64,000 bases of DNA from a virus (Duplodnaviria > Caudoviricetes), in IMG/VR virus record IMGVR_UViG_3300042564_001469, positions 4,618-68,617 of that record; one strand, 5' to 3'. The notes below the pieces were generated by a model, which was given only the letters and a program-made list of their open reading frames with translations, had not been told where the DNA came from and searched no databases. Numbering within the stretch: the stretch's first letter is position 1; each line of letters opens with the position of its first letter. The translations under genes were made by a program, and so were the position numbers. Positions 68 through 56,376 of the stretch are shown piece after piece.

Positions 68-261
68 TTATTGTTTTTAATAAAATTTTTATACCAAACA
101 ATATTCCCAATTAAACCACCATAACAAGCGATAAAAACAGAAATAATTAAATACCAATTTTCTAAATAACCCTTAACAACCCAATACGGATATAAAATAG
201 AACCTGTTAACAATAGAAGTATTGCAACCCAAGATGTTATATGTGTACCAAAATTTTTCAT
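64..261 (-). CDS. small two-TM membrane protein
   Basis: Two hydrophobic stretches; TATTTATA on the sense strand at 276-283. Confidence 0.65.
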   Translation of the reverse strand: MKNFGTHITSWVAILLLLTGSILYPYWVVKGYLENWYLIISVFIACYGGLIGNIVWYKNFIKNNK

Positions 262-275
262 AATCTATTTTTATT

Positions 276-306
276 TATAAATATCACAAGATTCAAACTA
301 TTTATA
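276..306. promoter_or_regulatory. divergent pair of candidate late-promoter motifs
   Basis: TATTTATA on the minus strand (276-283) and the plus strand (299-306), each sense to its gene. Confidence 0.55.
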
Positions 307-309
307 TAC

Positions 310-867
310 GTGAGCGAAAAATTAAAAAATCTAAAATTAGACCTTTTACTTAAAGAATTAAAGTTATTGGATTCAGAAAAAGATTATATTGATGAATTTA
401 CGACATATTATTCACCAGTGTTTATGGAAGAATTATCTAATAACGGATACATCGCCGAAACACCAACGGGCGAAACAAATAATCACAATATAAAAAATTC
501 ACAAAAAAATATCATTGACGTTAACGATGATGATAAGAAGTTGATTAAAAATATTTTTAGATCAATAGCAAAAGCGTCACATCCAGACAAAACACCAAAC
601 CAATATAAAAATAAATTATATGATGAAGCACAAATCGCATATGATGAAAATAATTTATTAGTGTTATATAAGATTGCAAAAAAATTAAATATTGAAATTG
701 AAATAAATATTAATACGCTTACATTATTAGAAAAAATTGTGGAAGATAAGAAGAAGCAATTAAAATCAGTTGAGACCTCATTTTTGTGGTTATGGGCAAA
801 TTCCGACACACAAGAAAAGAAAGATCAACTTATAAACCAATTTTTAAATAAACATAATAAAAAATGA
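310..867 (+). CDS. J-domain (DnaJ-like) protein
   Basis: IFRSIAKASHPDK contains the HPD motif in helical context; GTG start at 310 preferred because the 241 start overlaps the divergent gene. Confidence 0.7.
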   Translation: MSEKLKNLKLDLLLKELKLLDSEKDYIDEFTTYYSPVFMEELSNNGYIAETPTGETNNHNIKNSQKNIIDVNDDDKKLIKNIFRSIAKASHPDKTPNQYKNKLYDEAQIAYDENNLLVLYKIAKKLNIEIEININTLTLLEKIVEDKKKQLKSVETSFLWLWANSDTQEKKDQLINQFLNKHNKK

Positions 868-2060
868 AAATAGGTATTACATTAGGTCTAAAAGACAACA
901 AAGAATCCATCTGGACAAATGGTATTAAACAAAATGTATTGATGTTGGTTGAACTATTAAAAAAATCAACCAAAAATTATGATGTCTGTATATTAAACTC
1001 TACGAATGTTGATTTTACAGAAAAACCATCTTATTTAACGGATATTGATGTGCATTACTTCAATGATAAATTTATGGAAATGGATTTAATTATTGTTATG
1101 GGTGCTCAAATATTTGACCATCAATTGGAAACCTTTAAAAAATCTGGAAAAAATAAAAAAGTTGTATCTTATAAGTGTGGAAATAACTATGTAATCCATA
1201 TGGAAAATATTTTATTTAAACCAAGTGAAAGTAAAAAATTCCAATATGAAAAACAATATGATGAGGTATGGTATGTGCCACAACAACACGAGGTAAATTC
1301 TGGTTTATATAAAACACTATATCGTGTTAATTCAATTCCAGTACCCTTTATTTGGTCTGAAAAATATTTACACGAATCTGTTGTTGAAATACATAAAGGC
1401 TTTAAAGATGGGAAATATAAAAAGGATTGGCAATATGATAATACCAAAGAAAAGAAAATTTTGGGTATTATGGAACCAAACTTAAATATTGTTAAGTTTT
1501 GTTTAATTCCAGCGATGATTGCTGAAGAATCATATAGAACACCTGAAGGAAGAAAACGTATTGAAAAATTAAGAATAACAAATGCTACCACCGTATCAAA
1601 ACATAGGGAATTTATGTCAATCATTGAAACCTTTGATTTATATAAAGAAGGAAAGATTAGCGCTGAATCAAGATATCAAACAGCATTTATGTTAACACAA
1701 CATTTGGATGTTTTAATATGTCACCAATTATTAAACCCATTAAATTATTTATATTTGGATGCTGTATACTTGGGTTATCCTGTATTACATAACGCTCCTA
1801 TGTGTAAAGATTTGGGTTATTATTATGAGGGTTCTGATACCGTTGAGGCTGCTAAATTATTAAATCAAGTATTGGTTGAGCATGACGCAGATATTGACCG
1901 TTATAATCAACGAAACGATAAGGTATTACAAAGATATCATATAAGTAATGAAGACGTTATTAAAACTTATGATATGTTAATTGAGGGTTTATTTAATGGG
2001 GGGAATGGTGAATTGGTTTATAATCCTAAAACTAACTTGTATAATGATTTTAAAATCTAA
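864..2060 (+). CDS. DUF2827-like putative glycosyltransferase
   Basis: SIWTNGIKQN start, EPNLNIVK, HQLLNPLNYLYLDAVYLGYPVLHN and GYYY motifs typical of this family. Confidence 0.65.
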   Translation: MKIGITLGLKDNKESIWTNGIKQNVLMLVELLKKSTKNYDVCILNSTNVDFTEKPSYLTDIDVHYFNDKFMEMDLIIVMGAQIFDHQLETFKKSGKNKKVVSYKCGNNYVIHMENILFKPSESKKFQYEKQYDEVWYVPQQHEVNSGLYKTLYRVNSIPVPFIWSEKYLHESVVEIHKGFKDGKYKKDWQYDNTKEKKILGIMEPNLNIVKFCLIPAMIAEESYRTPEGRKRIEKLRITNATTVSKHREFMSIIETFDLYKEGKISAESRYQTAFMLTQHLDVLICHQLLNPLNYLYLDAVYLGYPVLHNAPMCKDLGYYYEGSDTVEAAKLLNQVLVEHDADIDRYNQRNDKVLQRYHISNEDVIKTYDMLIEGLFNGGNGELVYNPKTNLYNDFKI

Positions 2061-2265: not shown

Positions 2266-2343
2266 TTAAACCATTAAGACATCTTCTTGTATAGTTTTAC
2301 TCGTTGTTGGATTTCCTCCGTGGTTTTTCTTTTCCCAATTCAT
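2266..2343 (-). pseudogene. 25-codon ORF, possible deletion remnant
   Basis: ATG overlaps the cysC stop; MNWEKKNHGGNPTTSKTIQEDVLMV*. Confidence 0.3.
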
Positions 2344-2798
2344 ATGTTTTTTATTATTTCGTTTAATGAACTATTAGGTTTAATATTTGTTGTATCAACA
2401 TCAATATAATTTTCAGTTGGTCTTTCATAATCTTCGCTATGAAAATGTTCTCTACCTCTAATATCTGTTGTGTGAACATAAATCTCTACTACTTCAGTAT
2501 CTATTTCTGTTTTAAAATTCTCTCTCATTTCTTTGTATGGTGCTACTAAACTCACGATAACATCATATCCTTGCGAATGAATGAATTTTGAAATATCCTG
2601 TGCTCGTTTGATATTTTCTTCTCTACCTTCCCTACCATAATTAATATTTTTAAATAGTAATCGTAGTTCATCACCATCAATGTGGAAAACTTTTTTATTT
2701 GTACTATCTTCCAAATGTGTTTTTAGATTTGTTGCTAAAACTGTTTTTCCAGAACCAGGTTGACCAGTAAACCAATATATTTTATGTTTTTTTGACAT
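2340..2798 (-). CDS. cysC: adenylyl-sulfate (APS) kinase
   Basis: WFTGQPGSGKT P-loop, IDGDELR, REENIKR, VSLVAPY, YERP. Confidence 0.88.
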   Translation of the reverse strand: MSKKHKIYWFTGQPGSGKTVLATNLKTHLEDSTNKKVFHIDGDELRLLFKNINYGREGREENIKRAQDISKFIHSQGYDVIVSLVAPYKEMRENFKTEIDTEVVEIYVHTTDIRGREHFHSEDYERPTENYIDVDTTNIKPNSSLNEIIKNI

Positions 2799-2829
2799 AT
2801 TGTATCATTTTTTTTTGTTAATTTAATAA

Positions 2830-3483
2830 TTAAAATTCGTAATTAAATAAATCAAAATAAAATTTAAAATGAGTCTCAACTAAATTTTTAGTTTCGGATG
2901 AATACATTTTTTCCCAATTTTTATCTGGTCTCCTTTTATTTTTTTTATATTCAGATAATACCCTTGTTGGATTTGGAAGATTTAATTTAATCAATAAGTT
3001 ATTTATATCTGATTCTAAATTTTCAAATCTCACAACTTCATCAATAATAAATTGACCATCAACATACATTAAATCCCAATATTTTTTTGACAAGTCTTTA
3101 ACCACATTTGTTTTTAGTAAATAATCTTCAAAGGTCATTTCTCCACTTGCGTATAAATCAAAAGTTGGTTTAAAATAATAATGACTAACCATCATATCAA
3201 ATGGGTTTCTAACATTTATTATTTTGGTGTATGAATCAAAAATATCTTTACCAATACTATCTATTATTTTTTTGGGCGGCATATGGTTATAAAATTCTGA
3301 TTTTTCAGCCAATACCTGATTCATTCTAGTTCCTACAATACCTTCTTTTGTTTGAATCATTTCTCTACCGTGACTTTCTACAATATTAGAAATACAATAA
3401 GGCTCTAAATATATTTCAGTACTTGTTCCAGCCGTTTTAATACTCTTGATATAGATAAATTTATATTTGTGTGATACTAACAT
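2830..3483 (-). CDS. sulfotransferase family 2 protein
   Basis: SHKYKFIYIKSIKTAGTS (5'-PSB loop), VRNPFDMMVSHY (3'-PB), RFENL. Confidence 0.8.
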   Translation of the reverse strand: MLVSHKYKFIYIKSIKTAGTSTEIYLEPYCISNIVESHGREMIQTKEGIVGTRMNQVLAEKSEFYNHMPPKKIIDSIGKDIFDSYTKIINVRNPFDMMVSHYYFKPTFDLYASGEMTFEDYLLKTNVVKDLSKKYWDLMYVDGQFIIDEVVRFENLESDINNLLIKLNLPNPTRVLSEYKKNKRRPDKNWEKMYSSETKNLVETHFKFYFDLFNYEF

Positions 3484-4049
3484 AGTTTTTTAGTTTTATT
3501 GTGGTGACCAAATTCGGTCTTTTTTATTTCAATATATTTGGAAAAGAAATCATTTAATTTATGTGTCTCAGTTTCAATATCAAAAATAAGTAGGTCATTC
3601 GGCCTCACTTTAAAATATTCTTTAACTGATGTCATATGTTCATTCCATTGATTTTTCCAATATTGAATAACTTCATCATCGTTCATACCTAATATTCTTT
3701 TATTGGTGTTAAGGTAATTTGGGTGATTAAGTCTAGATTTAATCCAATTATCAATTGGTCTTAAATTCAAAATAAATTTTGAGTTTGGATATTGTATATC
3801 AAATTCTTTATAGTATGTTAAATGGGCGTAATTGTTGTTATTGACATTTTCCATATCAGTAAAACAATCATATTGTTCATAACCATTTAATATTGGTAAA
3901 TTTGAATCATAGTTTCTTTTAATTGTATCGGCCAACCTACCCATATCCCAATGAATGGGTTTTAATCCATTATTTTCAAAAAAATGATAAACAGATACGG
4001 TTCCGCATTTATTAAATCCTATTTGAAATATCTTATTTATTTTTTCCAT
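3477..4049 (-). CDS. sulfotransferase-like P-loop protein
   Basis: KIFQIGFNKCGTVS, YPNSKFILNLRPIDNWIKS, VKEYFKVRPNDLLIFDI. Confidence 0.75.
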   Translation of the reverse strand: MEKINKIFQIGFNKCGTVSVYHFFENNGLKPIHWDMGRLADTIKRNYDSNLPILNGYEQYDCFTDMENVNNNNYAHLTYYKEFDIQYPNSKFILNLRPIDNWIKSRLNHPNYLNTNKRILGMNDDEVIQYWKNQWNEHMTSVKEYFKVRPNDLLIFDIETETHKLNDFFSKYIEIKKTEFGHHNKTKKLC

Positions 4050-4650
4050 TTTTTAAAAGGTCCCTTGCTTTTGGTATTTGAGATTTAAAATCCCAATTAT
4101 TTTGTCTAAATATATTTTTCCTTGTAAATATACCAATAATACCATCTTGAGCAATTAATTCTGAAATTCTATAATCAATATGTGTAATTGGTTCACCTAA
4201 TTGTGTAACTATTTTATCAACACTTGATGGGTTTATAATATATGAGTGCATACCAATAAATTTATCTAAATTCATAAATGTATCACAAATATTTAATGGA
4301 CGTGACATTGATTTTGGGTCAGGAAAATGTCCAATAATCATTATATCCCATTGATGTTGAGTTAATAAAAGAAGATTTATTTCATTTATATAATTGGTAC
4401 CAATCGGTGTTGAATCGTCCTCTAAAATTAATAAAGGTACATCTTTACAAGAACTAATTATATTTCTATGTGATTCAAATGTAGCAACCGCCTCAACAGA
4501 TAAAAAATCTGGTTTATTATTAAATAAAGATTGGTCAATATCATTTGGTGATAAAGCATCAAAAAAAGAGAACGGAGTCCCAGATAACTGGGACTCCATA
4601 TATTCTCTCCTTTTTTTTGCGGATTTAAGACTTAATACTTTTATATCCAT
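4033..4650 (-). CDS. glycosyltransferase family 25-like
   Basis: VLSLKSAKKRRE, FSFFDA, FESHRN, LILEDD, GMHSYII. Confidence 0.8.
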   Translation of the reverse strand: MDIKVLSLKSAKKRREYMESQLSGTPFSFFDALSPNDIDQSLFNNKPDFLSVEAVATFESHRNIISSCKDVPLLILEDDSTPIGTNYINEINLLLLTQHQWDIMIIGHFPDPKSMSRPLNICDTFMNLDKFIGMHSYIINPSSVDKIVTQLGEPITHIDYRISELIAQDGIIGIFTRKNIFRQNNWDFKSQIPKARDLLKNGKNK

Positions 4651-4658
4651 CATTTCAA

Positions 4659-5945
4659 TTATTGATTTATTTGTCCAACACCTTTAACTCTAAGTTTACC
4701 AGATGATGTAATTACCAAATCAAGACCAAGTAAATTCCACCCTTCACCAATTAATGTATCATAATCAGCTGTCCCAGCAGCAGTTCTACCACCTGATGTG
4801 TAGAAATTACCATTGGTAAGACCATTAGTTACTAAATCTGATAAAATAGTATTATTAGCAGTAGCTGTCATTGGATTACCATTTAAACCGTAGGGGTCAG
4901 TTAATAACAAATATACTAAAGATGTCATCGGTAAAACGTCTAATGATGTTAATCCATTATTATATAAATACAAATCAGTTAAACCAGATAAACCAGTTCC
5001 ATCAAATGAGGTTAGTTGGTTACCAGCTAAATCCAAATTAACTAATCCAGATAATCCAGTTCCATCAAATGATTGTAATTGGTTATTAGTCGAAGTCAAT
5101 ACAATTAAAGTTACTGGTAAATTACTAAATGATGTTAATTGGTTATCATATAAATACAACGTAGCTAATCCAGATAATCCAGTTCCATCAAATGATTGTA
5201 ATTGGTTATTATTTAAATCCAAAAAAGTTAAACTAGATAATCCAGTTCCATCAAATGATGTTAGTTGGTTACTACCTAATTCCAAATCAGTTAAACCAGA
5301 TAAATCAGTTCCAACAAATGATGTTAATTGGTTATTACTTAAACCCAATTGAGTTAATCCAGATAATCCAGTTCCATCAAATGATGTTAAGAGGTTATTA
5401 CTTAAATACAAAGTAGTTAAACCAGATAAACCAGTTCCATCAAATGATGTTAACGTAGTTATACCCCAATCAGCAAAATTCAACTCAGTTATTAGACCCA
5501 TATCACCACCAATGAAAGTAGTTAAAGGGTTACCACCTAAACCCAACTCAGTTAAACCAGATAATCCAGTTCCATCAAATGATGTTAGTTGGTTATTACC
5601 TAAATACAACTCAGTTAAACCAGATAATCCAGTTCCATCAAATGATGTTAATTGGTTATCTCGTAAAAACAAATAAGTTAAACTAGATAATCCAGTTCCA
5701 TCAAATGTTGTTAGTTGGTTACCACCTATTTCCAAAGTAGTTATATCTCCACTAACAGTACCTTCATCATCACAAGATATAATTGTGAATTCACCATTTG
5801 CGTTTGCTACGGTGATTGTTTGTGAACCATTTGAAAATACACTTGAATCTGTACTGTTGTGATTGTATTTCCAATAACCAGTTGATGTATTAACATTAAT
5901 GTAAATTTCTTCACCAATGGATTTGGATGTTATAAATGTTGCCAT
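4659..5945 (-). CDS. leucine-rich repeat protein (one LRR module)
   Basis: 21-aa repeats LTSFDGTGLSGLTxLxLxxNQ with N- and C-caps. Confidence 0.88.
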   Translation of the reverse strand: MATFITSKSIGEEIYINVNTSTGYWKYNHNSTDSSVFSNGSQTITVANANGEFTIISCDDEGTVSGDITTLEIGGNQLTTFDGTGLSSLTYLFLRDNQLTSFDGTGLSGLTELYLGNNQLTSFDGTGLSGLTELGLGGNPLTTFIGGDMGLITELNFADWGITTLTSFDGTGLSGLTTLYLSNNLLTSFDGTGLSGLTQLGLSNNQLTSFVGTDLSGLTDLELGSNQLTSFDGTGLSSLTFLDLNNNQLQSFDGTGLSGLATLYLYDNQLTSFSNLPVTLIVLTSTNNQLQSFDGTGLSGLVNLDLAGNQLTSFDGTGLSGLTDLYLYNNGLTSLDVLPMTSLVYLLLTDPYGLNGNPMTATANNTILSDLVTNGLTNGNFYTSGGRTAAGTADYDTLIGEGWNLLGLDLVITSSGKLRVKGVGQINQ

Positions 5946-8180
5946 AATTTTTTATTTTTTTTTAAATTGTTATTTTGTTATTGATTTATTTGTCCAACAC
6001 CTTTAACTCTTAATTTTCTAACCGCAGATACCAAATCAGCACCTAGAATATTCCAATTATTTGCAATTAATGTATCATAATCAGATGTTCCAGCAGCAGT
6101 TCTACCACCTGATGTGTAGAAATTACCATTTGAATTACCATTTGTTACTAAACCTGATAAAATAGTATTATTAGCAGTAGCTGTCATTGGATTACCATTT
6201 AAACCGTATGGGTCAGTTAAAAATAAATCACTTAAACTTGTCATAGGTAAAACATCTAATGATGTTAGTTGGTTACCAGCCACTTGCAAAGTAAATAAAC
6301 TTGTTAAATCAGTCCCATCAAATGATGTTAGTTGGTTACCAGCCAATTGCAAATAAGTTAAACTAAATAATCCAGTTCCATCAAATGATGTTAGTTGGTT
6401 ATTATTTAAATACAACTCATTTAATGAAGATAAACCACTTCCATCAAATGATGTTAGTTGGTTATTATTTAAATACAATTCAGTTAAACCAGATAATCCA
6501 GTTCCATCAAATGATTGTAATTGGTTAGTATTTAAATCCAAATAAGTTAAACCAGATAAACCAGTTCCATCAAATGATGTTAGTTGGTTTTCACCTAAAT
6601 TCAAATTAGTTAAACCAGACAATCCAGTTCCATCAAATGATGTTAGTCCATTATTATATAAATACAAAGTAGTTAAACCAGATAAACCAGTTCCATCAAA
6701 TGATGTTAAGAGGTTACCCTGTAAATACAAAACAGTCAATGAAGATAAACCAGTTCCATCAAATGATGTTAGTTGGTTAATATCTAAATACAAAGTAGTT
6801 AAACCAGATAATCCATTTCCATCAAATGATGTTAGTTGGTTAACTTGTAAATTCAAATAAGTTAAACCAGATAATCCAGTTCCATCAAATGATGTTAGTT
6901 GGTTATTTTCCAAATACAAATAAGTTAAACCAGATAATCCAGTTCCATCAAATGATGTTAGTTGGTTACCACCTAAATTCAATTGAATTATATTACCACT
7001 AACTGTACCATCAGATAAACAAGGTATAATTGTGAATTCACCATTTGCGTTTGTTACAGTGATTGTTTGTGAACCATCCGCAAATACACTTGAATCAGTT
7101 CCATCGTGATTGTATTTCCAAAATTCAGTTGTTGTTTTAACACCAATGCTGATTGTTTGTCCAGTTAATTTGGATGTTATAAATGTTGGATTAACTACCA
7201 AATCAAGACCAAGTAAATTCCAACCATTTGCAATTAATACATCATAATCAGCTGTTCCAGCGGATGTTCTACCACCTGATGTATAGAAATTACCACCACT
7301 ATTACCATTAGTTACTAAACCTGATAAAATGTTATTATTAGCAGTAGCTGTCATTGGATTACCATTTAAACCGTAGGGGTCAGTTAAAGTTAAATAAGTT
7401 AAACTCACCATAGGTAAAACATCTAACGATGTTAATTGGTTATCACCTAAATATAATTCAGTTAAACCAGATAATCCAGTTCCATCAAATGATGTTAATT
7501 GGTTATCACCTAAATATAATTGAATTAAACTTGTTAATCCAGTTCCATCAAATGATGTTAATTGGTTATTAGTTAAATCCAAATAAGTTAAACTAGTCAT
7601 ATTACCACCATCAAATGTTTCTAATGTTGTAATATTCCAACTTGGGAAATTTAATGATATAATTAATCCCATATCACCACCAATGAATGTTATAAGTGGA
7701 TTATTTTGTAATTCCAAATAAGTTAAACTAGATAATCCAGTTCCAGTAAATCCTGTTAGTTGGTTAGTACCTAAATATAATTGAATTAAACTTGTTAATC
7801 CAGTTCCATCAAATGATGTTAGTTGGTTATTAGATAAACCCAAAGTAGTTAAACCAGATAATCCAGTTCCATCAAATGATGTTAATTGGTTATTATTTAA
7901 ATACAAGTCAGTTAATGTTACTGGTAAATTACTAACTGATGTTAAAGAACCAACACCCGATTTAGGTCCATCTAATCTCAATTCAGTTAAACCAGATAAA
8001 CCAGTTCCATTAAATGATGTTAGTTGGTTTTCATTTAAATACAAATAAGTTAAACTAGATAACCCATTTCCATTAAATGATGTTAGTTGGTTACCATTTA
8101 AATTCAAATAAGTTAAACCAGATAACCCATTTCCATCAAATGAAGTTAATTGGTTATTACTTAAATTCAATTGAGTTATA
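4920..8180 (-). repeat. three blocks of 63-bp coding tandem repeats (LRR)
   Basis: Recurrent aaaccagataatccagttccatcaaatgatgttagttggtta on the + strand with 63-nt period. Confidence 0.9.
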
Positions 8181-8380
8181 TCTCCACTAACTGTACCATC
8201 AGATAAACAAGGTATAATAGTGAATTCACCATTTGCGTTTGATACAGTGATTGTTTGATCACCATTTGAAAATACACTTGAATCAGTTCCATTATGATTA
8301 TATTTCCAATAACTAGTTGATGTAATAACACTAATTTTAATTGTTTGACCAGTTAATTTGGACGTTATAAATGTTGCCAT
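5978..8380 (-). CDS. leucine-rich repeat protein (two fused LRR modules)
   Basis: Same repeats; TFITSKLTGQT N-cap occurs twice (second copy from about 7186); paralog of 4659..5945. Confidence 0.88.
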   Translation of the reverse strand: MATFITSKLTGQTIKISVITSTSYWKYNHNGTDSSVFSNGDQTITVSNANGEFTIIPCLSDGTVSGDITQLNLSNNQLTSFDGNGLSGLTYLNLNGNQLTSFNGNGLSSLTYLYLNENQLTSFNGTGLSGLTELRLDGPKSGVGSLTSVSNLPVTLTDLYLNNNQLTSFDGTGLSGLTTLGLSNNQLTSFDGTGLTSLIQLYLGTNQLTGFTGTGLSSLTYLELQNNPLITFIGGDMGLIISLNFPSWNITTLETFDGGNMTSLTYLDLTNNQLTSFDGTGLTSLIQLYLGDNQLTSFDGTGLSGLTELYLGDNQLTSLDVLPMVSLTYLTLTDPYGLNGNPMTATANNNILSGLVTNGNSGGNFYTSGGRTSAGTADYDVLIANGWNLLGLDLVVNPTFITSKLTGQTISIGVKTTTEFWKYNHDGTDSSVFADGSQTITVTNANGEFTIIPCLSDGTVSGNIIQLNLGGNQLTSFDGTGLSGLTYLYLENNQLTSFDGTGLSGLTYLNLQVNQLTSFDGNGLSGLTTLYLDINQLTSFDGTGLSSLTVLYLQGNLLTSFDGTGLSGLTTLYLYNNGLTSFDGTGLSGLTNLNLGENQLTSFDGTGLSGLTYLDLNTNQLQSFDGTGLSGLTELYLNNNQLTSFDGSGLSSLNELYLNNNQLTSFDGTGLFSLTYLQLAGNQLTSFDGTDLTSLFTLQVAGNQLTSLDVLPMTSLSDLFLTDPYGLNGNPMTATANNTILSGLVTNGNSNGNFYTSGGRTAAGTSDYDTLIANNWNILGADLVSAVRKLRVKGVGQINQ

Positions 8381-8421
8381 AATTTTTTATTTTTTTTTTA
8401 AATTGTTATTTTGTTATTTAT

Positions 8422-8460
8422 TAAAAAAAGGTTGAGAGGTTTTACTCTCCCAACCTTTTA
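8422..8460. terminator. intrinsic terminator after the fibre gene
   Basis: aaaaggttg...caacctttt inverted repeat with A/T tails. Confidence 0.65.
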
Positions 8461-8481: not shown

Positions 8482-11046
8482 TTAGTACATACCATATGCG
8501 GCAACTTTATCACCAGCTTCAGGAGCAGCAACAAAAGTTAATGTTGTACCAGCAACAGTATAATCATCACCAACAACTTGTAACAAACCGTTCAAGTAGA
8601 TTGCTTCAGAACCAGTTCTAACAGCACTTGCAAGTGTAAACTCGTCATTTGTACCATCAACCGTTCCAGTTAAAGCAACTTTCTTGAAGTAGATATTTGT
8701 GAAGTCATCTGCCAAACTTAATTCAGCACTTTCAGCTCTTGCAACTTCAGTTGATAGATTCTCAACGATTTCAGAGAATGAATCAATTTCAGTTACATCA
8801 ATGTTAGAGATTAAGTAAGAAACTTGAGTTGACAATTCCGTAGCGATTGAATCTTCAGCAGCTTCAGCACGAGAAATTTCTGAACTAATTTCAGCCATTA
8901 CATCAACACCATCAACAGTAAGAATACCACCTACTTCAATGTTACCTTCAAAAGTTCTTAAACCTTCAGAACCAGCAACAACAACATCCTTCAATTGGAT
9001 TTTATTCGTTGCAGTATTAAGTTCAATTGTTAATTCATCAGTATCAGCCAAACTTTCAATTTCAGAAGATAAATCAGCAGCTAAAGATGCGTCAGCAGAT
9101 TCTCTAGTTGAAAGTTCATTATTTAAACTAGCCGTCAATTCGTCCATAACTGAAGCGTCACCAGTACTTATATTAGTAGAAAGTTCTTCACCTAATGAAA
9201 TTCTTGCTGAGTTTTGATATGCGTTACTATTAGTAATTACGTCTTCTACTGAAAAATCTCCGTTCTGTCTATTTAGAACCTCAGAAGATAAATCAGCGGT
9301 TAATACCGCTTCAGCACTCATTGCACGAGATTCTTCAGCATCTAAATCAGCACCGAAAGATGTCATTGCAGACAACAATGCGTTATCATTCTCTAAATCA
9401 ATTCCGTTAACGAAATCAACGATTTCAGCGAATTGGTCTAAATCAACATCAGAACCATCAAGGATAACATCAATACGAGACGCTTCAGCAGAAATGTTAG
9501 CAGCCAAAGATTGGTCAGCAGCCAAACGGATTGACGCTTCGTTATCCATAGCAACACCTCTATCAGAAACTTCAGAACTTAAATCAGCAGTTAATACCGC
9601 TTCAGCACTCATTGCTCTTGACTCTTCAGCATCAACATCAGCAGTTCTGTTAGAAACTTCAGCACTTACAGCGTTAGTCAATACTAACTCAGCACTCATT
9701 GCTCTACTTTCTTCAGCATCAACATCAGCAATACGGTTAGAAACTTCAGTAGATAAGTCATTAGTCAATACTAATTCAGCACTCATTGCTCTACTTTCTT
9801 CAGCATTAACATCAGCGATACGGTTAGAAACTTCAGCACTTAAATCATTAGTTAATACTAATTCAGCACTTGTTGCACGAGACTCTTCAGCATTCAAATC
9901 ATTAGTTAATACTAATTCAACACTCATTGCTCTTTCTTTTTCAGCGTCACCTTCAGCACTTAATTCTGCTTCAAAACTCATTGCACGAGATTCTTCAGCA
10001 TCAACATCAGCAGTTCTTTCAGAAATTTCAGTTGATAAAGCAGCCTCAACAGATGCGTTAGCAGTTGACAAGTCAGTAGAAATTTTAGCATCCAAAGAAA
10101 CATCAGCAGACAAACGAGTTGATGCTTCAACAGATACCGCACTCTCACGATTAACAATTTCAGTTGATAAATCAGAAGCTAAAGAAGCATCACCAGATAC
10201 TCTTGCAGAAGCCTCAGCACTTACAGCAACTTCTCTGTTGTAAGTTTCAGTTGACAAATCAGCAACAACAGAAGCATCACCAGAAATTCTAGCAGCCTCC
10301 TCTAAAGATACACCAGCAACTCTATCAACGATTTCAGTTGATAAATCAGACGCTAAAGACTGGTCAGCGGCCAAACGAGTTGATGCTTCAGCAGATGTTG
10401 CGATAGATGCGTTAGTTGCAAGTTCAGTAATAGTACCTTCTAAATCACCATCCATTGATTGAAAAGCATTAACGATTTCTGTTAATGAATCCAAAGCAGC
10501 TGGGTCAGTGTTAGAGATAACGTACTCAATTTTTGTGTTTAATGACTCATCAGCAGCCAAACGAGTTGATGCTTCAGCGTTTAGGTCATTAACCAATGCT
10601 TCATCAGCAGCCTCCATTGCAGCTTCCAAACTTTCATCACCAACAACTCTTAAAGATGCTTCAGCAGTAATGTTGTTTTGTAATGAAGTTTCAGCAACGA
10701 TTGAACGAGATTCTTCAGCGTCAACATCAGCCTCTCTATTAGCAACTTCAGAAGATAAATTTGCAGCAAGTGATTCATCACCAGCAACTCTCAAAGATGC
10801 TTCAGCAGATACAGCAATAGTTCTATCACTGATTTCTGTTGATAATTTAGTATCTACTGATTCATCACCAGAAATACGACTAGAAACTTCACGAGATGTT
10901 TCAGTTGCAATGTTTGTATCGATTGACGTAATAGCCGATTGCAAACCATCAATATCGGCAACAACGATACCAACTGGTGCTGTTATTTGTGCGTTGTCCA
11001 AAATTAAATCGGACTGTCTATTTAATACAATTTTAGTTGTAGACAT
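8482..11046 (-). CDS. long coiled-coil fibre-like virion protein
   Basis: Ala/Ser/Glu-rich 11/18/29-aa periodic repeats (AEESRAMSAELVLTNDLSxEVSNRIADVD); three LDSLTEI-like fibre motifs; C-terminal YLNGLLQ...DYT beta domain. Confidence 0.7.
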   Translation of the reverse strand: MSTTKIVLNRQSDLILDNAQITAPVGIVVADIDGLQSAITSIDTNIATETSREVSSRISGDESVDTKLSTEISDRTIAVSAEASLRVAGDESLAANLSSEVANREADVDAEESRSIVAETSLQNNITAEASLRVVGDESLEAAMEAADEALVNDLNAEASTRLAADESLNTKIEYVISNTDPAALDSLTEIVNAFQSMDGDLEGTITELATNASIATSAEASTRLAADQSLASDLSTEIVDRVAGVSLEEAARISGDASVVADLSTETYNREVAVSAEASARVSGDASLASDLSTEIVNRESAVSVEASTRLSADVSLDAKISTDLSTANASVEAALSTEISERTADVDAEESRAMSFEAELSAEGDAEKERAMSVELVLTNDLNAEESRATSAELVLTNDLSAEVSNRIADVNAEESRAMSAELVLTNDLSTEVSNRIADVDAEESRAMSAELVLTNAVSAEVSNRTADVDAEESRAMSAEAVLTADLSSEVSDRGVAMDNEASIRLAADQSLAANISAEASRIDVILDGSDVDLDQFAEIVDFVNGIDLENDNALLSAMTSFGADLDAEESRAMSAEAVLTADLSSEVLNRQNGDFSVEDVITNSNAYQNSARISLGEELSTNISTGDASVMDELTASLNNELSTRESADASLAADLSSEIESLADTDELTIELNTATNKIQLKDVVVAGSEGLRTFEGNIEVGGILTVDGVDVMAEISSEISRAEAAEDSIATELSTQVSYLISNIDVTEIDSFSEIVENLSTEVARAESAELSLADDFTNIYFKKVALTGTVDGTNDEFTLASAVRTGSEAIYLNGLLQVVGDDYTVAGTTLTFVAAPEAGDKVAAYGMY

Positions 11047-12089: not shown

Positions 12090-15000
12090 TCAATCACAGA
12101 TCCATACATCAACATTTGCTTTTGTTGATACAAAAGATCTATATACATAATATATAATATTTTGTCCGTGAGAATCAATGATTGTTATTTCATCAACTTT
12201 TACGAACGGTATAATAAATCCACTACAACCATCATTACTATTTCTAAATATTGTTGGTTGTTGCATTGTATTTGGTATTAACATATAACAATAACCGTTA
12301 ACTGCCGCGTACATTAAATAATTATTCACAATCTCGTTTGTTTCAACAGTACCCAATAAATTTAAATCATCAACATCAAAATTTTGTTTTAAATATTTAC
12401 CATAATAAACAATTGGTAACACAACAACAGACGTACTTGTTGGTGTTGGTGTGTTTGTCGGTATTGGTGTACTTGTCGGTGTACTTGTTGGTGTTGTGGT
12501 TGGTGTATTAGTCGGTGTTGGGGTTGGAGTTGCCTTACCAGGTTTAACAGGTATCTCATAATGTATTTGTCTAGTCTCAGTAATAACAATTTGTTCATTA
12601 TCAATACCGTGGACATCAATTACTGGTATACCAATATTTGTATCTTCTGTTAATTTATCATAATCTTCATCAATAATGATTTGTTTCGTTATTGATGTTT
12701 GTCCTTGTGGTATTAATACTGTAATATTAATAGGTGCAATCCTATCATCTTCAAACACTAAGTTCTTCACAAAACTAACGGTTGTATCACGAATTACTGG
12801 TGTATTATTTGTTACGACAACATTAGCAATAACACTACCTGATGTTATTGTCACGTCAATTGTAAGGTCTAATTCAAACATTGGTATTGACGGTGTTGGT
12901 GTTGGTGTAACAGTTGGTGTTACACTAGGTGTTGGTGTTGGAAGTTGTGTGGTTGTTGTTGTAACTATCTCAAAAGTGAAATCATCTACCTCACAGAAAT
13001 CATCACCACAATCTGGACAATCTGGATCAAACATCCCAAATTTATTTTTTAAAATATTAAAATTATGTTTAACCTCATCCCCACTTAATGGTTCAACATA
13101 CATTCTAAATTGTGATATTGCACCCTCAAACGTACCCCCAAATTCCTTTTCCAATAAGATATTTGTTGTTAACCCTGAGAATGTTGTCCCGCTTAATGTT
13201 GATGTTGGAAACAATTCTGGGTCTTGTGTGTAACCACTTGTTAATCCAGAACAAGATGAAAATGTTAAATTTTCGTGAAGTCCTTGTGTTCCACCACCCC
13301 AAGAAATGTTAAATGGTACACCTAATTGTTTTTCTTTATCTGTGTTTAACGCTCTCGGTATTACTTCCTCAAAATTCTCTAAGGTATAAATCGGTTTACC
13401 ATTAACATAAATTTTTAACCTACCTAATCTATATTTTTTTTCTTCTAACCATTTTTGATTTAAATTAACAATCTCAATTGTCTCACCAAACTCATTTATA
13501 TGTGTTAATGGTGGTTGTATTAAATTAACGGTGTTATTGGCTAATGAATCCAAAGGTCTTATTTCTGTGATATCCGCAAGACCACCAAAGTATTTTAAGT
13601 CACAATAATCAAAATCGGTATAACGTGACCAAGTAACGTCCACTTGAAACCAATGTTCCAAATCTAACCAAGACGGATTTTCTTTTTGACACCTTGGGTA
13701 AATTGGTGGTGAACAATATTCATCAATTGTGTAACCTGTTAAATATGTTTGTCCTGATGTGCAAGTTCCAGTTGTTTCGCAACCACCAGTAAAACGTAAA
13801 ACTTTAACACCAATTGATGGGTTCTTTGGGTCACCACATAATTTAAACGCAATATTATTTGACATTAAATCAAATAACGGATCTTTTTCACAAGTATCCT
13901 CAATTGATGTAAAACCACTTGTACTACAATCAATACAATCGGTACACGTTTCACAAGTGGTACAACTTGGTGTACAAACGGGTGTTGTGTTTTCACAACT
14001 CGGTGTTGAGGTTGGTACGGGTGTTGGTGTCGGTGTTGGTTCAATAATTACAGGACAATTATGTGTTTGACATTCCCAACCGCAAGTATCACAAGGTGAA
14101 TCACCACATTCACAACCACAAGTTAATTTTTTTTCATTATCACCGTTACAAGTGTTACAACCATAGTTTAAATGGGGGTCGTGTTGGTTGTTTTTTGATC
14201 TTGGTGGATATAAATAAACACATCTACTATTTGTTATGTTTCTATCACAACAAGCACAGGTTTGAACACAACTTGCTAATGGTGTTGTTATTCTTGTGTA
14301 ACCAGTAAAACATTTTGGTGAACCATCCGCATAATGATAAAATTTATTCTCGGCTCTAGTACCCAAATAAAAAAACATATTTTTATTTTGTGGGTATAAC
14401 ATATTTAATGTTGTTTCACCCGAATTTGGTTGATATTCATTTTGTAACCTAGGTTTTAAAACCATTTCAATAGTCCAACCTTTTGTTACCCGTTCAGGTA
14501 ATATTTCATAATCATAACCAAATAATTTATAAAACCCTTGATAAAAACCACCATATAATTCGTGATACCTACCAATTGTTGGATCGTTTTTACTAACAAC
14601 CTCATATAATGTCTGACCAGTTATACCTGAAAATTGTTCATACATTCCAGTGTATCCTGTTACTTGAATCATTTTAAATCTTCTGTCATAATGTAACCTA
14701 TCAAATTTAACAGAATCCTCAAATATACCTTCAGTAAAATTTAACGTTTCTCCTGTCATTTTATTGACTAAACCATTATCAATACCCGTTAAACCAATAT
14801 CACAAACAGTGTCTGCTGTTAAACAATTTAAAACTTCGTTTGTTGGATTATAATAATTTTGGGATACAAAAATATTATTTTGGTTATAATTTTTATAGGT
14901 AAGATTTAAAGGTTGTACGGTCAAAAAATTACCAATATCTATATTAATTGGTAATTTTTTACCATATGTTTGTGCGATAAGGTAAGGTGAGAAAACTACC

Positions 15001-15110
15001 TCCTCACTATAATCTTTTTCATCTGAAGTTAATGACATATCCATACTATCATATTCTAGGTTTAATCTAGATTTTTGATAAGCATATTGATTAATATTCT
15101 GTTGTGCCAT
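12090..15110 (-). CDS. large Cys-rich putative virion protein with LamG-like elements and PT-repeat linkers
   Basis: LKIYVNG and FEGAISQFRMYVEPLSGDEVKHNF (LamG-like); CxxC-dense insert; three (PT)n tracts. Confidence 0.6.
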   Translation of the reverse strand: MAQQNINQYAYQKSRLNLEYDSMDMSLTSDEKDYSEEVVFSPYLIAQTYGKKLPINIDIGNFLTVQPLNLTYKNYNQNNIFVSQNYYNPTNEVLNCLTADTVCDIGLTGIDNGLVNKMTGETLNFTEGIFEDSVKFDRLHYDRRFKMIQVTGYTGMYEQFSGITGQTLYEVVSKNDPTIGRYHELYGGFYQGFYKLFGYDYEILPERVTKGWTIEMVLKPRLQNEYQPNSGETTLNMLYPQNKNMFFYLGTRAENKFYHYADGSPKCFTGYTRITTPLASCVQTCACCDRNITNSRCVYLYPPRSKNNQHDPHLNYGCNTCNGDNEKKLTCGCECGDSPCDTCGWECQTHNCPVIIEPTPTPTPVPTSTPSCENTTPVCTPSCTTCETCTDCIDCSTSGFTSIEDTCEKDPLFDLMSNNIAFKLCGDPKNPSIGVKVLRFTGGCETTGTCTSGQTYLTGYTIDEYCSPPIYPRCQKENPSWLDLEHWFQVDVTWSRYTDFDYCDLKYFGGLADITEIRPLDSLANNTVNLIQPPLTHINEFGETIEIVNLNQKWLEEKKYRLGRLKIYVNGKPIYTLENFEEVIPRALNTDKEKQLGVPFNISWGGGTQGLHENLTFSSCSGLTSGYTQDPELFPTSTLSGTTFSGLTTNILLEKEFGGTFEGAISQFRMYVEPLSGDEVKHNFNILKNKFGMFDPDCPDCGDDFCEVDDFTFEIVTTTTTQLPTPTPSVTPTVTPTPTPSIPMFELDLTIDVTITSGSVIANVVVTNNTPVIRDTTVSFVKNLVFEDDRIAPINITVLIPQGQTSITKQIIIDEDYDKLTEDTNIGIPVIDVHGIDNEQIVITETRQIHYEIPVKPGKATPTPTPTNTPTTTPTSTPTSTPIPTNTPTPTSTSVVVLPIVYYGKYLKQNFDVDDLNLLGTVETNEIVNNYLMYAAVNGYCYMLIPNTMQQPTIFRNSNDGCSGFIIPFVKVDEITIIDSHGQNIIYYVYRSFVSTKANVDVWICD

Positions 15111-55362: not shown

Positions 55363-56376
55363 TTATATACTAAATTTTCTTACTGCACGAACATAGAAGC
55401 CGGAGTTCTTAACGCCGATGCTGGTAACCCCAATGTCGAAGGTGAAGTACCACGCGCGGTTGCTGACGAGCTCCGTACTACTCCAATAAATATTAGTAGA
55501 AACTATAGTAGCACCAACAATAGGTCCTAAACTAGAATTACCAGACAAAGTTCTATTTACATTAAATCTATTTTGCCAAAGTAAACTTAATTCATCAATA
55601 GCTGGTAGATACCAGTCTGTTTGTCCACCATTACTACTTGCATCACACAAAAACGCAGCTCCTGTAGTAGCACCTGACTGTGTTATTATGGCAGTTGTAT
55701 TAGAAGAGCCATCCCATGTAGTTCCAGCAGTTGACCCAATTACTACATTATCTATGTTTGACCAAACAGATGACGTTGATATATTAGTTATATCAACTAC
55801 TAAATAATTTTCATTTGCACCATCTTTATATCTATGAAATATTACACCACCTTGTGATGCAACATATTGACCAATTTGATATGTAAACCCACCAGTTGTT
55901 CCAGTTACAACCTCACCACTTGAATCCAATCCCAAGTTAATAACTGGTGAACCTGAACCAATTGTATCCAAATTCAATGTACCCCCACTTATTGCGAAAT
56001 CACCCTGGAATGTTCTTGTCCCACCAGTTGTTTCAGCAACGATTTCCTTTAATTCAATTTTATTTGTATCTAAATTTAATGTGATTGTTTGTTCATCAGT
56101 TTCAGCAAGTCCCGCAATTTCATTATTTAAATCTTCGGTTAATCCACTAACTTCAAAATTACTACCAGTATTATAATCAAAAATAATTGTTCCACCAGTA
56201 AAATATGTTCCACCAGTTACGTAAGTATCAGTAACACCAGAGTTAACATAATTTTTTATCTGGTCTATTGTTATTTTATTGGTGTCATCAGTACTAATAT
56301 TAACAATCGGTAACACATCATTAGCGGTTATCGCACTAAATTGTATTTGTGTTAAATCGGTTATTCTTTTGTCCAT
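55363..56376 (-). CDS. fibre/adhesin-like protein with C-terminal DUF1566 (C-type lectin fold) domain; probable DGR target
   Basis: KRITDL N-terminus; GGVIF, DWYLPAIDEL, YWSSTE...AW...VRAVRKF. Confidence 0.78.
   Translation of the reverse strand: MDKRITDLTQIQFSAITANDVLPIVNISTDDTNKITIDQIKNYVNSGVTDTYVTGGTYFTGGTIIFDYNTGSNFEVSGLTEDLNNEIAGLAETDEQTITLNLDTNKIELKEIVAETTGGTRTFQGDFAISGGTLNLDTIGSGSPVINLGLDSSGEVVTGTTGGFTYQIGQYVASQGGVIFHRYKDGANENYLVVDITNISTSSVWSNIDNVVIGSTAGTTWDGSSNTTAIITQSGATTGAAFLCDASSNGGQTDWYLPAIDELSLLWQNRFNVNRTLSGNSSLGPIVGATIVSTNIYWSSTELVSNRAWYFTFDIGVTSIGVKNSGFYVRAVRKFSI
55378..55490 (-). other. candidate DGR variable repeat (VR)
   Basis: 49/90 G+C at 55391-55480; 18 of 25 codons between STE and YVR end in C. 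Confidence 0.62.

What the first reader, a model, noticed from the sequence alone, without database searches (positions are those of the whole stretch)
4659..8380. Three tandem LRR modules with a hypervariable concave face and shuffled repeats (VLR-like architecture in a phage)
Seen: the backbone LTSFDGTGLSGL is nearly fixed at DNA level, while the x positions of T-x-L-x-L-x-x-N differ in almost every 63-bp unit (YLFLRD, ELYLGN, QLGLSN, DLELGS, YLNLQV, TLYLDI, VLYLQG, YLQLAG). Rare variant units recur at different positions in different modules: LYLYNNG, NLPVTL, GGDMGLI, NQLQSF, NLLTSF. The two genes share N-terminus, C-terminus (KLRVKGVGQINQ) and about 40 nt of upstream DNA. The larger gene is two modules fused. 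Known: these positions form the ligand-binding surface in internalins and lamprey VLRs. Inference: a recombination-diversified binder array, for receptor binding or decoy function, located after a fibre gene.
Basis: partly seen in the sequence, partly recalled or inferred. Interest (0 to 1): 0.72.

Follow-up and report, generated by a model that had tools for sequence, protein, structure and literature searches.

The report
Hypervariable LRR adhesin genes beside phage fibre
A large uncultured lake-water phage carries, right after a fibre gene, two genes for three leucine-rich-repeat binding modules whose scaffold is almost constant while four surface residues per repeat differ in nearly every repeat, most likely inherited, fast-evolving attachment proteins rather than a lamprey-style assembled receptor.

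Summary
Two minus-strand genes (4659-5945, 428 aa; 5978-8380, 800 aa) encode three modules. Each has a 77-aa beta-sandwich start, 11-12 LRR units of 21 aa and a C-terminal cap. Both proteins end in the tail KLRVKGVGQINQ.

Across 29 canonical units, variation sits at four positions on the predicted concave strand and loop. There dN/dS is 5.6, against 0.49 for the other 17 positions. Unit order is not conserved between modules.

The genes fill a slot after a fibre-like gene that is conserved in related phage contigs of up to about 300 kb. Slot content differs widely between relatives (1-6 modules, 2-16 units), even next to flanks about 95% identical. One KLR[VI]KG[VI] peptide occurs in each of 14 of 14 slot proteins, at either end or internally.

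No reverse transcriptase and no silent LRR cassettes were found, so a VLR-like or DGR mechanism is not supported.

Best reading: virion-displayed adhesins that evolve by repeat duplication, reshuffling and diversifying selection, as fungal NLR repeats do. Display on the virion is inferred, not shown.

This scan had already noted the same family on other DNA.

The parts
4659..5945 (-). LRR gene g1 (428 aa), one module (M1)
   Evidence: ORF. Pfam LRR_4 E 1.8e-35 and LRR_8 E 4.4e-27. AlphaFold2 model pLDDT 86.6. Best Foldseek matches are InlJ 3bz5 (E 6e-13) and Leptospira LIC10831.
5715..5945 (-). N-terminal 77-aa beta-sandwich domain of M1 (start MATFITSK...)
   Evidence: Alignment A2: 19 copies, 70% mean column identity. 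Modelled alone, pLDDT 95.4. Only weak fold matches: best Z 5.7, Foldseek E 0.27 or worse. Of 34 proteins carrying this domain, 30 also carry Pfam LRRs.
4953..5714 (-). M1 LRR array: 12 units (10 canonical 21-aa units, one 24-aa GGDMGLI unit, one 20-aa NLPVTL unit)
4707..4952 (-). C-terminal cap of M1 (last LRR plus two helices)
   Evidence: Model secondary structure: H361-373 and H393-400. The three caps differ at 15% of residues.
4659..4706 (-). C-terminal tail of g1 with KLRVKGVGQINQ, plus the stop codon
   Evidence: Residues 414-428 have pLDDT under 50 in the model. The motif recurs in 14 of 14 slot proteins. Its codons vary synonymously between relatives.
5946..5981 (-). Leader of g1, shared with g2 (AT-rich, no Shine-Dalgarno core); it overlaps the g2 stop codon
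   Evidence: Pairwise alignment of the two upstream regions.
5978..8380 (-). LRR gene g2 (800 aa), two modules fused in frame
   Evidence: ORF. Pfam LRR_4 E 4.7e-70. Layout.
7193..8380 (-). Module M2 (aa 1-396): N-domain, 11 units, cap
   Evidence: The NLPVTL unit is at position 4 and the GGDMGLI unit at position 8.
5981..7192 (-). Module M3 (aa 397-800): N-domain without its own start codon, 11 canonical units, cap, tail KLRVKGVGQINQ
   Evidence: The N-domains of M2 and M3 are sisters in the tree (support 95/88). The junction is bridged with no mismatch by contigs of 4 of 4 runs.
8381..8417 (-). Leader of g2, identical to the g1 leader except for one extra A
8434..8449 (-). Terminator-like hairpin between the fibre gene and the g2 leader
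8482..11046 (-). Fibre-like gene (854 aa) that precedes the LRR slot in the window and its relatives
   Evidence: Same N-terminus (MSTTKIVLNRQ...) and same position in L008, L009, L011, L013/L014 and L018 (L018 reads MSTTKIVLDRQ); in L007 and L010 the 5' end of the fibre gene before the slot lies off the contig. No Pfam or PHROG family. Matches of 18-20% coverage to proteins annotated as tail fiber in 2 of 4 phage records.

Best explanation
g1 and g2 encode accessory adhesins of a large, roughly 300-kb T4-like freshwater phage, probably displayed on the virion next to the fibre encoded just upstream. Each module is an internalin-type LRR solenoid, capped by its own small beta-sandwich and a C-terminal cap, and its concave sheet is the binding surface. 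The three modules carry three different series of faces, so the phage would display several specificities at once. Diversity is inherited, not made during infection. Near-identical 63-bp units duplicate, are lost and are exchanged within and between modules and genes by homologous or unequal recombination. Whole modules and genes duplicate through the shared leader and tail sequences. Selection keeps amino-acid changes at four exposed residues per unit. One short basic beta-strand-like peptide, KLR[VI]KG[VI], occurs per polypeptide and is proposed to be the piece that docks the protein to a common partner. Shown here: the anatomy, the selection pattern, the slot's variability and the motif's regularity. 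Inferred: virion display, the docking role of the tail and the ligand.
For: Fold: Pfam LRR matches. The AlphaFold2 model has pLDDT 86.6, with a strand at unit positions 14-16 in each of the 12 units (13-15 in the 20-residue unit 10) and in the cap. Top PDB matches are InlJ, Leptospira LRR proteins, InlA, SHOC2 and SDS22.

Selection: the four variable codons give dN 0.965 and dS 0.172 (ratio 5.6). The 17 backbone codons give a ratio of 0.49 with dS 0.232. dN(variable)/dS(backbone) is 4.2, with a bootstrap range of 3.0-5.3. With the five x positions of LxxLxLxxN chosen beforehand, the ratio is 6.9 against 0.41. dS at the variable codons is not raised, so mutation is not targeted there.

Reshuffling: units are as different within modules (12.07 nt) as between them (12.37 nt). 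The nearest pairs sit at non-matching indices: M1 unit 2 with M2 unit 11 (3 nt), and M1 unit 12 with M3 unit 5 (4 nt). The order of faces is no more collinear than shuffled orders; 814, 1482 and 1681 of 2000 shuffles reach the observed score.

Hot spot: relative L011 is about 95% identical in both flanks, but identity falls to 63-76% inside g2. Its slot holds an 899-aa LRR protein plus a DUF285 protein instead. Across the relatives' slots, polypeptides carry 0-6 modules, with 2-16 units per module. The same four variable positions and a low backbone synonymous diversity (0.11-0.36) appear in 6 of 7 relatives' arrays.

Context: the slot lies among fibre-like genes on both sides. Relatives join the modules with Thr/Pro-rich linkers and add extra C-terminal domains. 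CBM_5_12 (PF02839) occurs in 8 of the 120 listed homologues.

Motif: exactly one copy in 14 of 14 slot polypeptides. It is C-terminal in 9, lies before extra domains in 2 and is N-terminal in 3, including a DUF285 protein and a 137-aa protein. In four relatives' records it occurs only in the slot (2, 3, 1 and 2 hits; 0 control hits), and its codons differ synonymously. It is disordered in the monomer model.
Against: No virion proteomics or expression data exist. The three PHROG families that match the LRR proteins carry no known function. The 'fibre' label rests on gene position, composition and matches of only 18-20% coverage. LRRs are equally typical of intracellular protein binders. The N-domain fold has no clear relative. 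dN/dS on paralogous repeats that recombine is not a formal test, because pairs of units are not independent. Variable residues come from a narrow alphabet: Y, N, G, D, E, T and Q make up 103 of 116, and only 1 is basic. That may reflect structural limits as well as ligand choice. Variation in unit number or order within one phage population was not demonstrated. The window's own record is only about 23% of a genome.
Confidence: 0.55

Rival explanations
1. The LRR proteins decorate the virion in a Hoc-like way. They would hold the phage on non-host surfaces (particles, algal or mucus-like polymers) and would not recognise the host receptor. The multi-module design would raise avidity for abundant environmental polymers.
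For: Some family members carry CBM_5_12 carbohydrate-binding domains (8 of 120 listed) or large extra C-terminal domains. The faces are rich in Tyr, Asn, Asp and Gly and nearly free of basic residues. The slot's content differs widely even between relatives with about 95% identical flanks.
Against: Strong diversifying selection on four residues per unit and rapid turnover of the slot fit an arms race with a variable partner better than binding to a common polymer. The genes sit next to a fibre gene, not next to the capsid genes at 47-55 kb.
Confidence: 0.2
2. The proteins act inside the infected cell as binders of host proteins, for example inhibitors or decoys of defence proteins, and are not virion parts. 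Paralogue expansion and surface diversification would then track variable host targets.
For: LRRs are classic protein-protein interaction domains. In the library of predicted viral structures the nearest folds are mostly LRR proteins of giant eukaryotic viruses. No structural-protein family matches these proteins.
Against: The genes are embedded in a fibre gene region and follow the fibre gene in the window and its relatives. Thr/Pro-rich linkers, CBM_5_12 fusions and a DUF285 protein that shares the same tail peptide all suggest an extracellular role.
Confidence: 0.15
3. Diversity is produced by a dedicated mechanism during the phage life cycle: a diversity-generating retroelement, VLR-like cassette copying, or site-specific inversion.
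For: Of the 116 variable codons, 96 are NNT, which superficially recalls adenine-directed mutagenesis of AAY codons. Contigs from lake runs contain further unit variants not present in the window (table 5c).
Against: RVT_1 is absent from the window's own record and from 5 of 5 relatives' records, two of them at least 96% complete. All LRR matches in the own record (6 of 6) and in four relatives' records lie inside the slot genes, on one strand. Twenty of the 116 codons (CAA, GAA, GAG, CAG, CGA, ACG) cannot arise as NNT. dS at the variable codons is not raised. The extra variants may belong to related phages in the same lakes.
Confidence: 0.04
4. The three-module arrangement is an artefact of assembling short reads across near-identical repeats.
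For: No contig from the four runs laid spans the array, and Logan contigs break into pieces of 150-430 nt there.
Against: The longest exact repeat is under 60 nt. Pieces at 99% identity or more recur in 4 of 4 independent runs, and 29-30 of 30 bins are covered. The M2-M3 fusion junction is bridged without mismatch in 4 of 4 runs. Independent assemblies of relatives show the same architecture.
Confidence: 0.04

Closest known systems
Repeats with high internal conservation in fungal NLRs (Podospora het-d/het-e WD40 repeats). Sources: Paoletti et al. 2007, PMC1805685 (abstract read); Dyrka et al. 2014, PMC4986451 (passages read).
   Same: Near-identical tandem repeats, exchange of repeats within and between paralogues, variable repeat number, and four residues per repeat on the interaction surface under diversifying selection. 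All four features are matched here.
   Different: The repeat type differs (LRR rather than WD40, ANK or TPR). There is no NACHT or NB-ARC domain. The genes belong to a phage fibre locus, not to a cellular immune receptor. Mean unit identity is 71% overall and 83% for the backbone, below the 85% cut-off used by Dyrka et al. RIP, the fungal repeat-mutation process, does not apply.
Internalin / SDS22-class bacterial LRR proteins (InlJ 3bz5, InlA, Leptospira LIC10831 4u06)
   Same: Best structural matches, with E 6e-13 to 1e-9. The repeat is short (21 residues) with the LxxLxLxxN strand.
   Different: No internalin N-terminal helical cap and no Ig-like inter-repeat domain. No Pfam match to such domains. 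The protein starts MATFITSK, with no evident signal peptide. It has its own beta-sandwich N-domain, which is rare: 82 cluster representatives among 1.84 billion proteins.
Lamprey variable lymphocyte receptors (from established knowledge, recalled)
   Same: An LRR scaffold with a variable number of units and variation concentrated on the concave face.
   Different: VLRs are assembled somatically from flanking donor cassettes into an incomplete gene, with AID/APOBEC-like deaminases. Here the genes are complete, no donor cassettes exist, and the diversity lies between phage lineages.
Host-recognition proteins of jumbo phages with LRR or beta-helix domains on a dedicated anchor module (Goslar DUF7941 proteins; bioRxiv 10.64898/2026.04.21.720040, passages read)
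   Same: A large phage with several accessory proteins, each joining a common attachment element to LRR or carbohydrate-binding domains, proposed to recognise the host.
   Different: The proposed anchor here is a peptide of about 8 residues that can sit at either end, not a DUF7941 domain. The phage has a T4-type capsid and portal. The arrays show extreme internal conservation and positive selection, which that paper does not describe in the passages I read.
Diversity-generating retroelement targets
   Same: A phage locus next to a fibre gene in which a few codons vary against a fixed frame.
   Different: No reverse transcriptase, no template repeat, an LRR fold rather than a C-type lectin or Ig fold, and codon changes not limited to adenine positions.

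Membership tests
Leucine-rich repeat superfamily | LxxLxLxxN(x)L repeat motif, scoring above Pfam gathering thresholds | tested here: met
   LRR_4 scores 120.6 and 230.5 bits (cut-off 27). LRR_8 scores 94.1 and 170.6 bits. Unit consensus is LTSFDGTGLSGLTxLxLxxNQ.
Leucine-rich repeat superfamily | Curved solenoid with a continuous parallel beta-sheet on the concave side | tested here: met
   Predicted only. AlphaFold2 pLDDT 86.6, with a strand at positions 14-16 in each of the 12 units (13-15 in the 20-residue unit 10). Foldseek probability 1.00 to InlJ, InlA, SHOC2 and SDS22.
Listeria internalin family | N-terminal helical cap, Ig-like inter-repeat domain after the LRRs, secretion signal | tested here: not met
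   The N-terminus is a 77-aa beta-sandwich. No Pfam family other than LRR models reaches its gathering cut-off. The region after the LRRs is an alpha/beta cap of about 80 residues.
Lamprey VLR system | Incomplete germline gene flanked by silent donor LRR cassettes | tested here: not met
   Both genes are complete ORFs. All 6 LRR matches in the own record lie inside them. In four relatives' records (100%, 96%, 83% and 63% complete) all matches lie in the slot genes.
Lamprey VLR system | AID/APOBEC-like deaminase and somatic assembly | not tested
   No deaminase search was run, and somatic assembly cannot be tested on assemblies.
Diversity-generating retroelement | Reverse transcriptase near the variable gene | tested here: not met
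   RVT_1 is absent from the own record (0 of 1) and from the relatives (0 of 5). The control search found it in 3 of the 14 control genomes. The own record is only 23% complete.
Diversity-generating retroelement | Template/variable repeat pair differing only at template adenines | tested here: not met
   No such pair exists: 29 units all differ from one another. Twenty of the 116 variable codons are not NNT, and the third codon position also varies (pi 0.29).
High-internal-conservation repeat arrays under concerted evolution (fungal NLR type) | Repeats nearly identical at nucleotide level, including silent sites | tested here: met
   Mean nucleotide identity is 81%. Four-fold-site diversity in the backbone is 0.126, against 0.55 expected from composition. 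The 85% amino-acid cut-off of Dyrka et al. is not reached (71% overall, 83% backbone).
High-internal-conservation repeat arrays under concerted evolution (fungal NLR type) | A few surface positions per repeat under diversifying selection | tested here: met
   dN/dS is 5.6 at four codons and 0.49 elsewhere. For the set chosen a priori it is 6.9 against 0.41.
High-internal-conservation repeat arrays under concerted evolution (fungal NLR type) | Repeat-number variation and exchange of repeats between paralogues | tested here: met
   Modules hold 2-16 units and polypeptides 1-6 modules among relatives. The nearest units lie in other modules at other indices. No collinearity remains. The exchange itself is inferred, not observed.
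High-internal-conservation repeat arrays under concerted evolution (fungal NLR type) | NLR architecture (NACHT/NB-ARC plus an effector domain) | tested here: not met
   No such Pfam domain in either protein.
Phage receptor-binding / fibre accessory proteins | Encoded in the tail-fibre gene cluster, with a conserved attachment element and a variable distal part | tested here: met
   The slot after the fibre gene is conserved in the window and its relatives. One KLR[VI]KG[VI] peptide occurs in 14 of 14 slot proteins. That this peptide is the attachment element is inference.
Phage receptor-binding / fibre accessory proteins | Present in the virion and binds the host surface | not testable with these tools
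   Needs proteomics, microscopy or binding assays.

The most novel reading that the evidence does not exclude
A clade of freshwater jumbo phages keeps a plug-in display system. A position-independent peptide of about 8 residues (KLR[VI]KG[VI]) mounts any binder on the virion: LRR modules, DUF285 repeats or carbohydrate-binding domains. The LRR payload is a combinatorial, recombination-shuffled repertoire of binding faces that turns over fast enough to differ between phages whose flanks are about 95% identical. This would be a viral counterpart of the repeat-shuffling receptor repertoires of fungal and plant immunity, used for attack rather than defence.
Probability: 0.3. Interest if true: 0.78.

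Novelty: new variant of a known kind. Interest (0 to 1): 0.6.

Why it matters
It would show that phages, and not only cellular immune systems, use near-identical repeat arrays with a few selected surface positions to generate binding diversity, here for attachment.

It gives a defined and very compact target for host-range studies in uncultured freshwater phages: four residues per 21-residue unit, modules of about 400 residues, and one short candidate anchor peptide.

It also offers a natural LRR scaffold in which the permissive positions are already mapped.

The literature searches I ran returned no paper describing such arrays in a phage. They cover only the open-access library. This scan had already flagged the same family on other contigs.

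Tried and rejected
1. Complex prediction. I submitted the last 150 residues of the fibre (3 copies, alignment A3) together with whole g1 (alignment A1). The score was 0.00 against a mark of 0.32, and the verdict was 'no answer'. This says nothing for or against binding.

2. Near-identical DNA in GenBank phages: none found.

3. g1 against GenBank phages by tblastn: 10 records matched, on the LRR part only. Eight are Listeria phage records. Two are records of Tenacibaculum phage PTm1, whose 98-aa ORF-289 is labelled 'SlrP'. None has the N-domain.

4. Fold of the N-domain. The best matches are a designed beta-helix, GOLD domains, LecB lectin, carbohydrate-binding modules and phage baseplate domains, at Z 5.0-5.7 and Foldseek E 0.27 or worse. 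These are too weak to name a fold.

5. Search with the last 40 residues of g1: only 3 proteins, all LRR proteins. Uninformative.

6. Fibre against solved structures: no match.

7. Joints in lake-water contigs. Examples are 5982 to 8424 in 2 of 4 runs and 7766 back to 5226 in 1 run. They have low depth and short sides, lie in de Bruijn-graph contigs across repeats, and may come from related phages. I do not count them as evidence for a g2-less variant or for order polymorphism.

8. L019, a Chitinophagaceae SusC-like protein, matched the N-domain only through a CarboxypepD_reg-like stretch. I treat this as chance-level.

9. Higher-order repeat periods of 126 and 189 nt are no better than 63 nt.

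10. tRNA scan: none found.

11. Earlier notes in this scan on a 'plug-and-socket' fibre joint were used as a lead only.

Full report
**What is there**

The window is part of a 68.6-kb viral contig that CheckV rates as 23% complete, which implies a genome near 300 kb. It has a T4-type major capsid protein, portal and large terminase. G+C is about 30%. No tRNA genes were found, and no near-identical GenBank phage exists.

Two adjacent ORFs lie on the minus strand: g1 (4659-5945, 428 aa) and g2 (5978-8380, 800 aa). Tandem Repeats Finder reports 63-bp arrays in both. Pfam LRR_4 and LRR_8 match far above their cut-offs.

The proteins resolve into three modules:
- M1 is the whole of g1.
- M2 is g2 residues 1-396.
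- M3 is g2 residues 397-800.

Each module has a 77-residue N-domain, 11-12 LRR units and a cap of about 80 residues. Both polypeptides end in KLRVKGVGQINQ. The two genes share a 36-37-nt AT-rich leader, their first codons and 33 nt at the 3' end. A terminator-like hairpin separates the upstream fibre-like gene from the g2 leader.

**Is the pattern more than any LRR protein shows?**

Yes. In 29 canonical units the consensus is LTSFDGTGLSGLTxLxLxxNQ. Entropy is 2.3-3.0 bits at positions 14, 16, 18 and 19, and 0-1.2 bits at the other 17 positions. Twenty-eight of the 29 four-residue faces are distinct.

The backbone is conserved at silent sites as well. Four-fold-site diversity is 0.126, against 0.55 expected from base composition.

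Nei-Gojobori estimates:

| Codon set | dN | dS | dN/dS |
|---|---|---|---|
| 4 variable codons | 0.965 | 0.172 | 5.6 |
| 17 backbone codons | - | 0.232 | 0.49 |

The ratio dN(variable)/dS(backbone) is 4.2, with a bootstrap range of 3.0-5.3. To avoid choosing sites after seeing the data, I repeated the test with the five x positions of LxxLxLxxN. The result was 6.9 against 0.41.

Silent divergence at the variable codons is not raised. That argues for selection on ordinary mutations and against targeted mutagenesis.

A distant relative, L012, serves as an internal control. Its array varies at all positions and its silent sites are saturated (0.74). Six of seven relatives show the window's pattern.

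These figures come from paralogous repeats that probably recombine, so they are descriptive rather than a formal test.

**Where the variable residues sit**

An AlphaFold2 model of g1 (20-sequence alignment, pLDDT 86.6, pTM 0.72) places a three-residue strand on unit positions 14-16 in each of the 12 units (13-15 in the 20-residue unit 10) and in the cap. Positions 14 and 16 therefore flank the buried Leu15 on the sheet. Positions 18 and 19 follow in the loop before the conserved Asn. By established LRR knowledge, this is the concave ligand-binding surface.

The best solved matches are InlJ (E 6e-13), Leptospira LIC10831, InlA, SHOC2 and SDS22.

The variable residues use a narrow alphabet: Y 26, N 23, G 16, D 11, E 10, T 9 and Q 8 of 116. 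Only one is basic, where about 14 would be expected (P about 5e-6).

The N-domain modelled alone (pLDDT 95.4) is a small beta-sandwich with only weak fold matches. It is rare: 82 cluster representatives among 1.84 billion proteins. It is tied to LRRs, which 30 of 34 proteins scanned also carry. I read it as a dedicated N-terminal cap.

**Shuffling**

Units are as different within a module (12.07 nt) as between modules (12.37 nt). The closest pairs lie at non-matching indices in different genes:
- M1 unit 2 and M2 unit 11: 3 of 63 nt differ.
- M1 unit 12 and M3 unit 5: 4 nt differ.
- M1 unit 8 and M3 unit 7: 4 nt differ.

The order of faces between modules is no more collinear than shuffled orders. 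The two irregular unit types occur in opposite order in M1 and M2.

Silent divergence between module N-domains and caps (dS 0.23-0.25) equals that between units. The N-domains of M2 and M3 are sisters in the tree (support 95/88), which points to an intragenic module duplication.

**Relatives**

Eleven viral-contig loci and one contig binned in a Flavobacteriaceae MAG carry relatives. In L008, L009, L011, L013/L014 and L018, the same fibre-like gene (start MSTTKIVLNRQ or MSTTKIVLDRQ) is followed directly by a slot of MATFITSK-type genes; L007 and L010 show the same layout, but the 5' end of the fibre gene before the slot is cut off by the contig end.

Slot content differs widely:

| Locus | Slot proteins (aa) |
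|---|---|
| window | 800 + 428 |
| L011 | 899 + a 432-aa DUF285 protein |
| L009 | 582 |
| L008 | 137 + 491 + 298 |
| L013 | 237 + 237 |
| L007 | 1472 |
| L010 | 1569 (six modules) |
| L018 | 620 + 351 |

L011 lies on a 296-kb record rated 100% complete. It is about 95% identical to the window on both flanks, but identity falls to 63-76% inside g2 and collinearity ends there. The slot is therefore a hot spot of replacement.

**The tail peptide**

KLR[VI]KG[VI] occurs exactly once in each of 14 of 14 slot polypeptides, whatever the number of modules:
- At the C-terminal end in 9.
- Between the LRR modules and extra C-terminal domains in 2.
- At the N-terminus in 3: a DUF285 protein, a 137-aa protein and an LRR protein.

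In four relatives' records the back-translated pattern hits only the slot (2, 3, 1 and 2 hits; none for the control). Its codons differ synonymously, so it is the peptide that is conserved. In the monomer model it is disordered.

I infer a docking peptide. The partner is unknown.

**Mechanisms excluded or weakened**

- RVT_1 is absent from the own record and from 5 of 5 relatives' records, two of them at least 96% complete.
- All LRR matches lie within the slot genes on one strand, so there are no silent cassettes and no inverted copies.
- Twenty of the 116 variable codons are not NNT.

A VLR-like or DGR-like process is therefore not supported. The missing three quarters of this genome remain unseen.

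**Population data**

Twenty-four lake-water runs hold parts of the region. In the four runs laid:
- Most contigs match at 99% or more.
- 29-30 of 30 bins are covered.
- The M2-M3 junction is bridged without mismatch in all four.
- No contig spans the array.

A few contigs carry other variable segments between known backbones. They may belong to related phages.

**Best reading and rivals**

I favour virion-displayed accessory adhesins that evolve in the manner described for fungal NLR repeats: concerted evolution, reshuffling, and four selected surface residues per repeat. For that comparison I read the abstract of PMC1805685 and passages of PMC4986451.

Rivals are a Hoc-like role in adherence to non-host surfaces, an intracellular binder, a programmed diversifier and an assembly artefact.

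The closest phage precedent I could read is the proposed host-recognition role of LRR or beta-helix domains on Goslar DUF7941 proteins (bioRxiv 10.64898/2026.04.21.720040, passages).

This scan's own earlier notes describe the same family on other contigs. One of them suggested the fungal-NLR comparison, which I then checked against the papers and against my own numbers.

Noticed in passing
window 2340-4653 (minus strand): APS kinase, two sulfotransferases and a GT25 glycosyltransferase lie directly downstream of g1 on the same strand. The block is absent from the relative L011, whose flanks are about 95% identical, and a similar three-gene block follows the LRR gene in L007. It may modify the fibre or the LRR proteins, but the substrate is unknown.
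   Followed up: partly
window 241-2060 (plus strand): A weak J-domain protein (DnaJ E 3e-3) and a DUF2827 protein (E 5e-100) face the cassette convergently. DUF2827 closes the slot in every relative seen. Earlier notes of this scan propose that it glycosylates the fibre; I did not test this.
   Followed up: no
whole window; L018; L021: Host clues point to Bacteroidota. A Shine-Dalgarno-like core lies upstream of only 3 of 44 genes. The same cassette sits on a contig binned in a Flavobacteriaceae MAG. The nearest LRR match in a cultured phage is in Tenacibaculum phage PTm1. Capsid relatives include Flavobacterium phages at 41% identity.
   Followed up: partly
window 47109-48938 (minus strand): The major capsid protein has 609 residues, but the best Gp23 Pfam stretch covers only residues 344-594 (a second stretch was not located). 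tblastn hits cover about half of it in two pieces. The protein therefore carries a large extra N-terminal or inserted region.
   Followed up: no
window 42987-44603 and 45254-46978 (minus strand): Two paralogous proteins of 538 and 574 aa match phrog_3339, annotated 'homing endonuclease'. One also has DUF7487 plus a Mom-like domain, the other a ROS/MucR zinc-finger stretch. They sit next to the capsid gene.
   Followed up: no
window 12090-15110 (minus strand) and L020 3478-4266: A 1006-aa protein with a Cys-rich centre and long Pro/Thr linkers, and a 262-aa protein with similar linkers and a similar C-terminal end. Neither matches any family.
   Followed up: no
L012 8001-12087: In a distant relative, the LRR protein and the next gene share a different C-terminal tail (...QLNAITLGGPNGLNA) and lack KLRVKGV. 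The adjacent genes again share a tail, but the tail differs by phage.
   Followed up: partly
window 8482-11046 (minus strand): The fibre-like protein is built of Ala/Ser/Glu-rich repeats with recurring ...LSTE[IV]... strings. It has two patches that diverge sharply from L011: 62% identity at 9040-9225 and 74% at 9813-10012, within a gene otherwise 90-100% identical.
   Followed up: no
window 55363-56376 (minus strand): A 337-aa protein with an Lcl C-terminal domain (PF07603, E 6e-12) lies between the portal and terminase genes.
   Followed up: no
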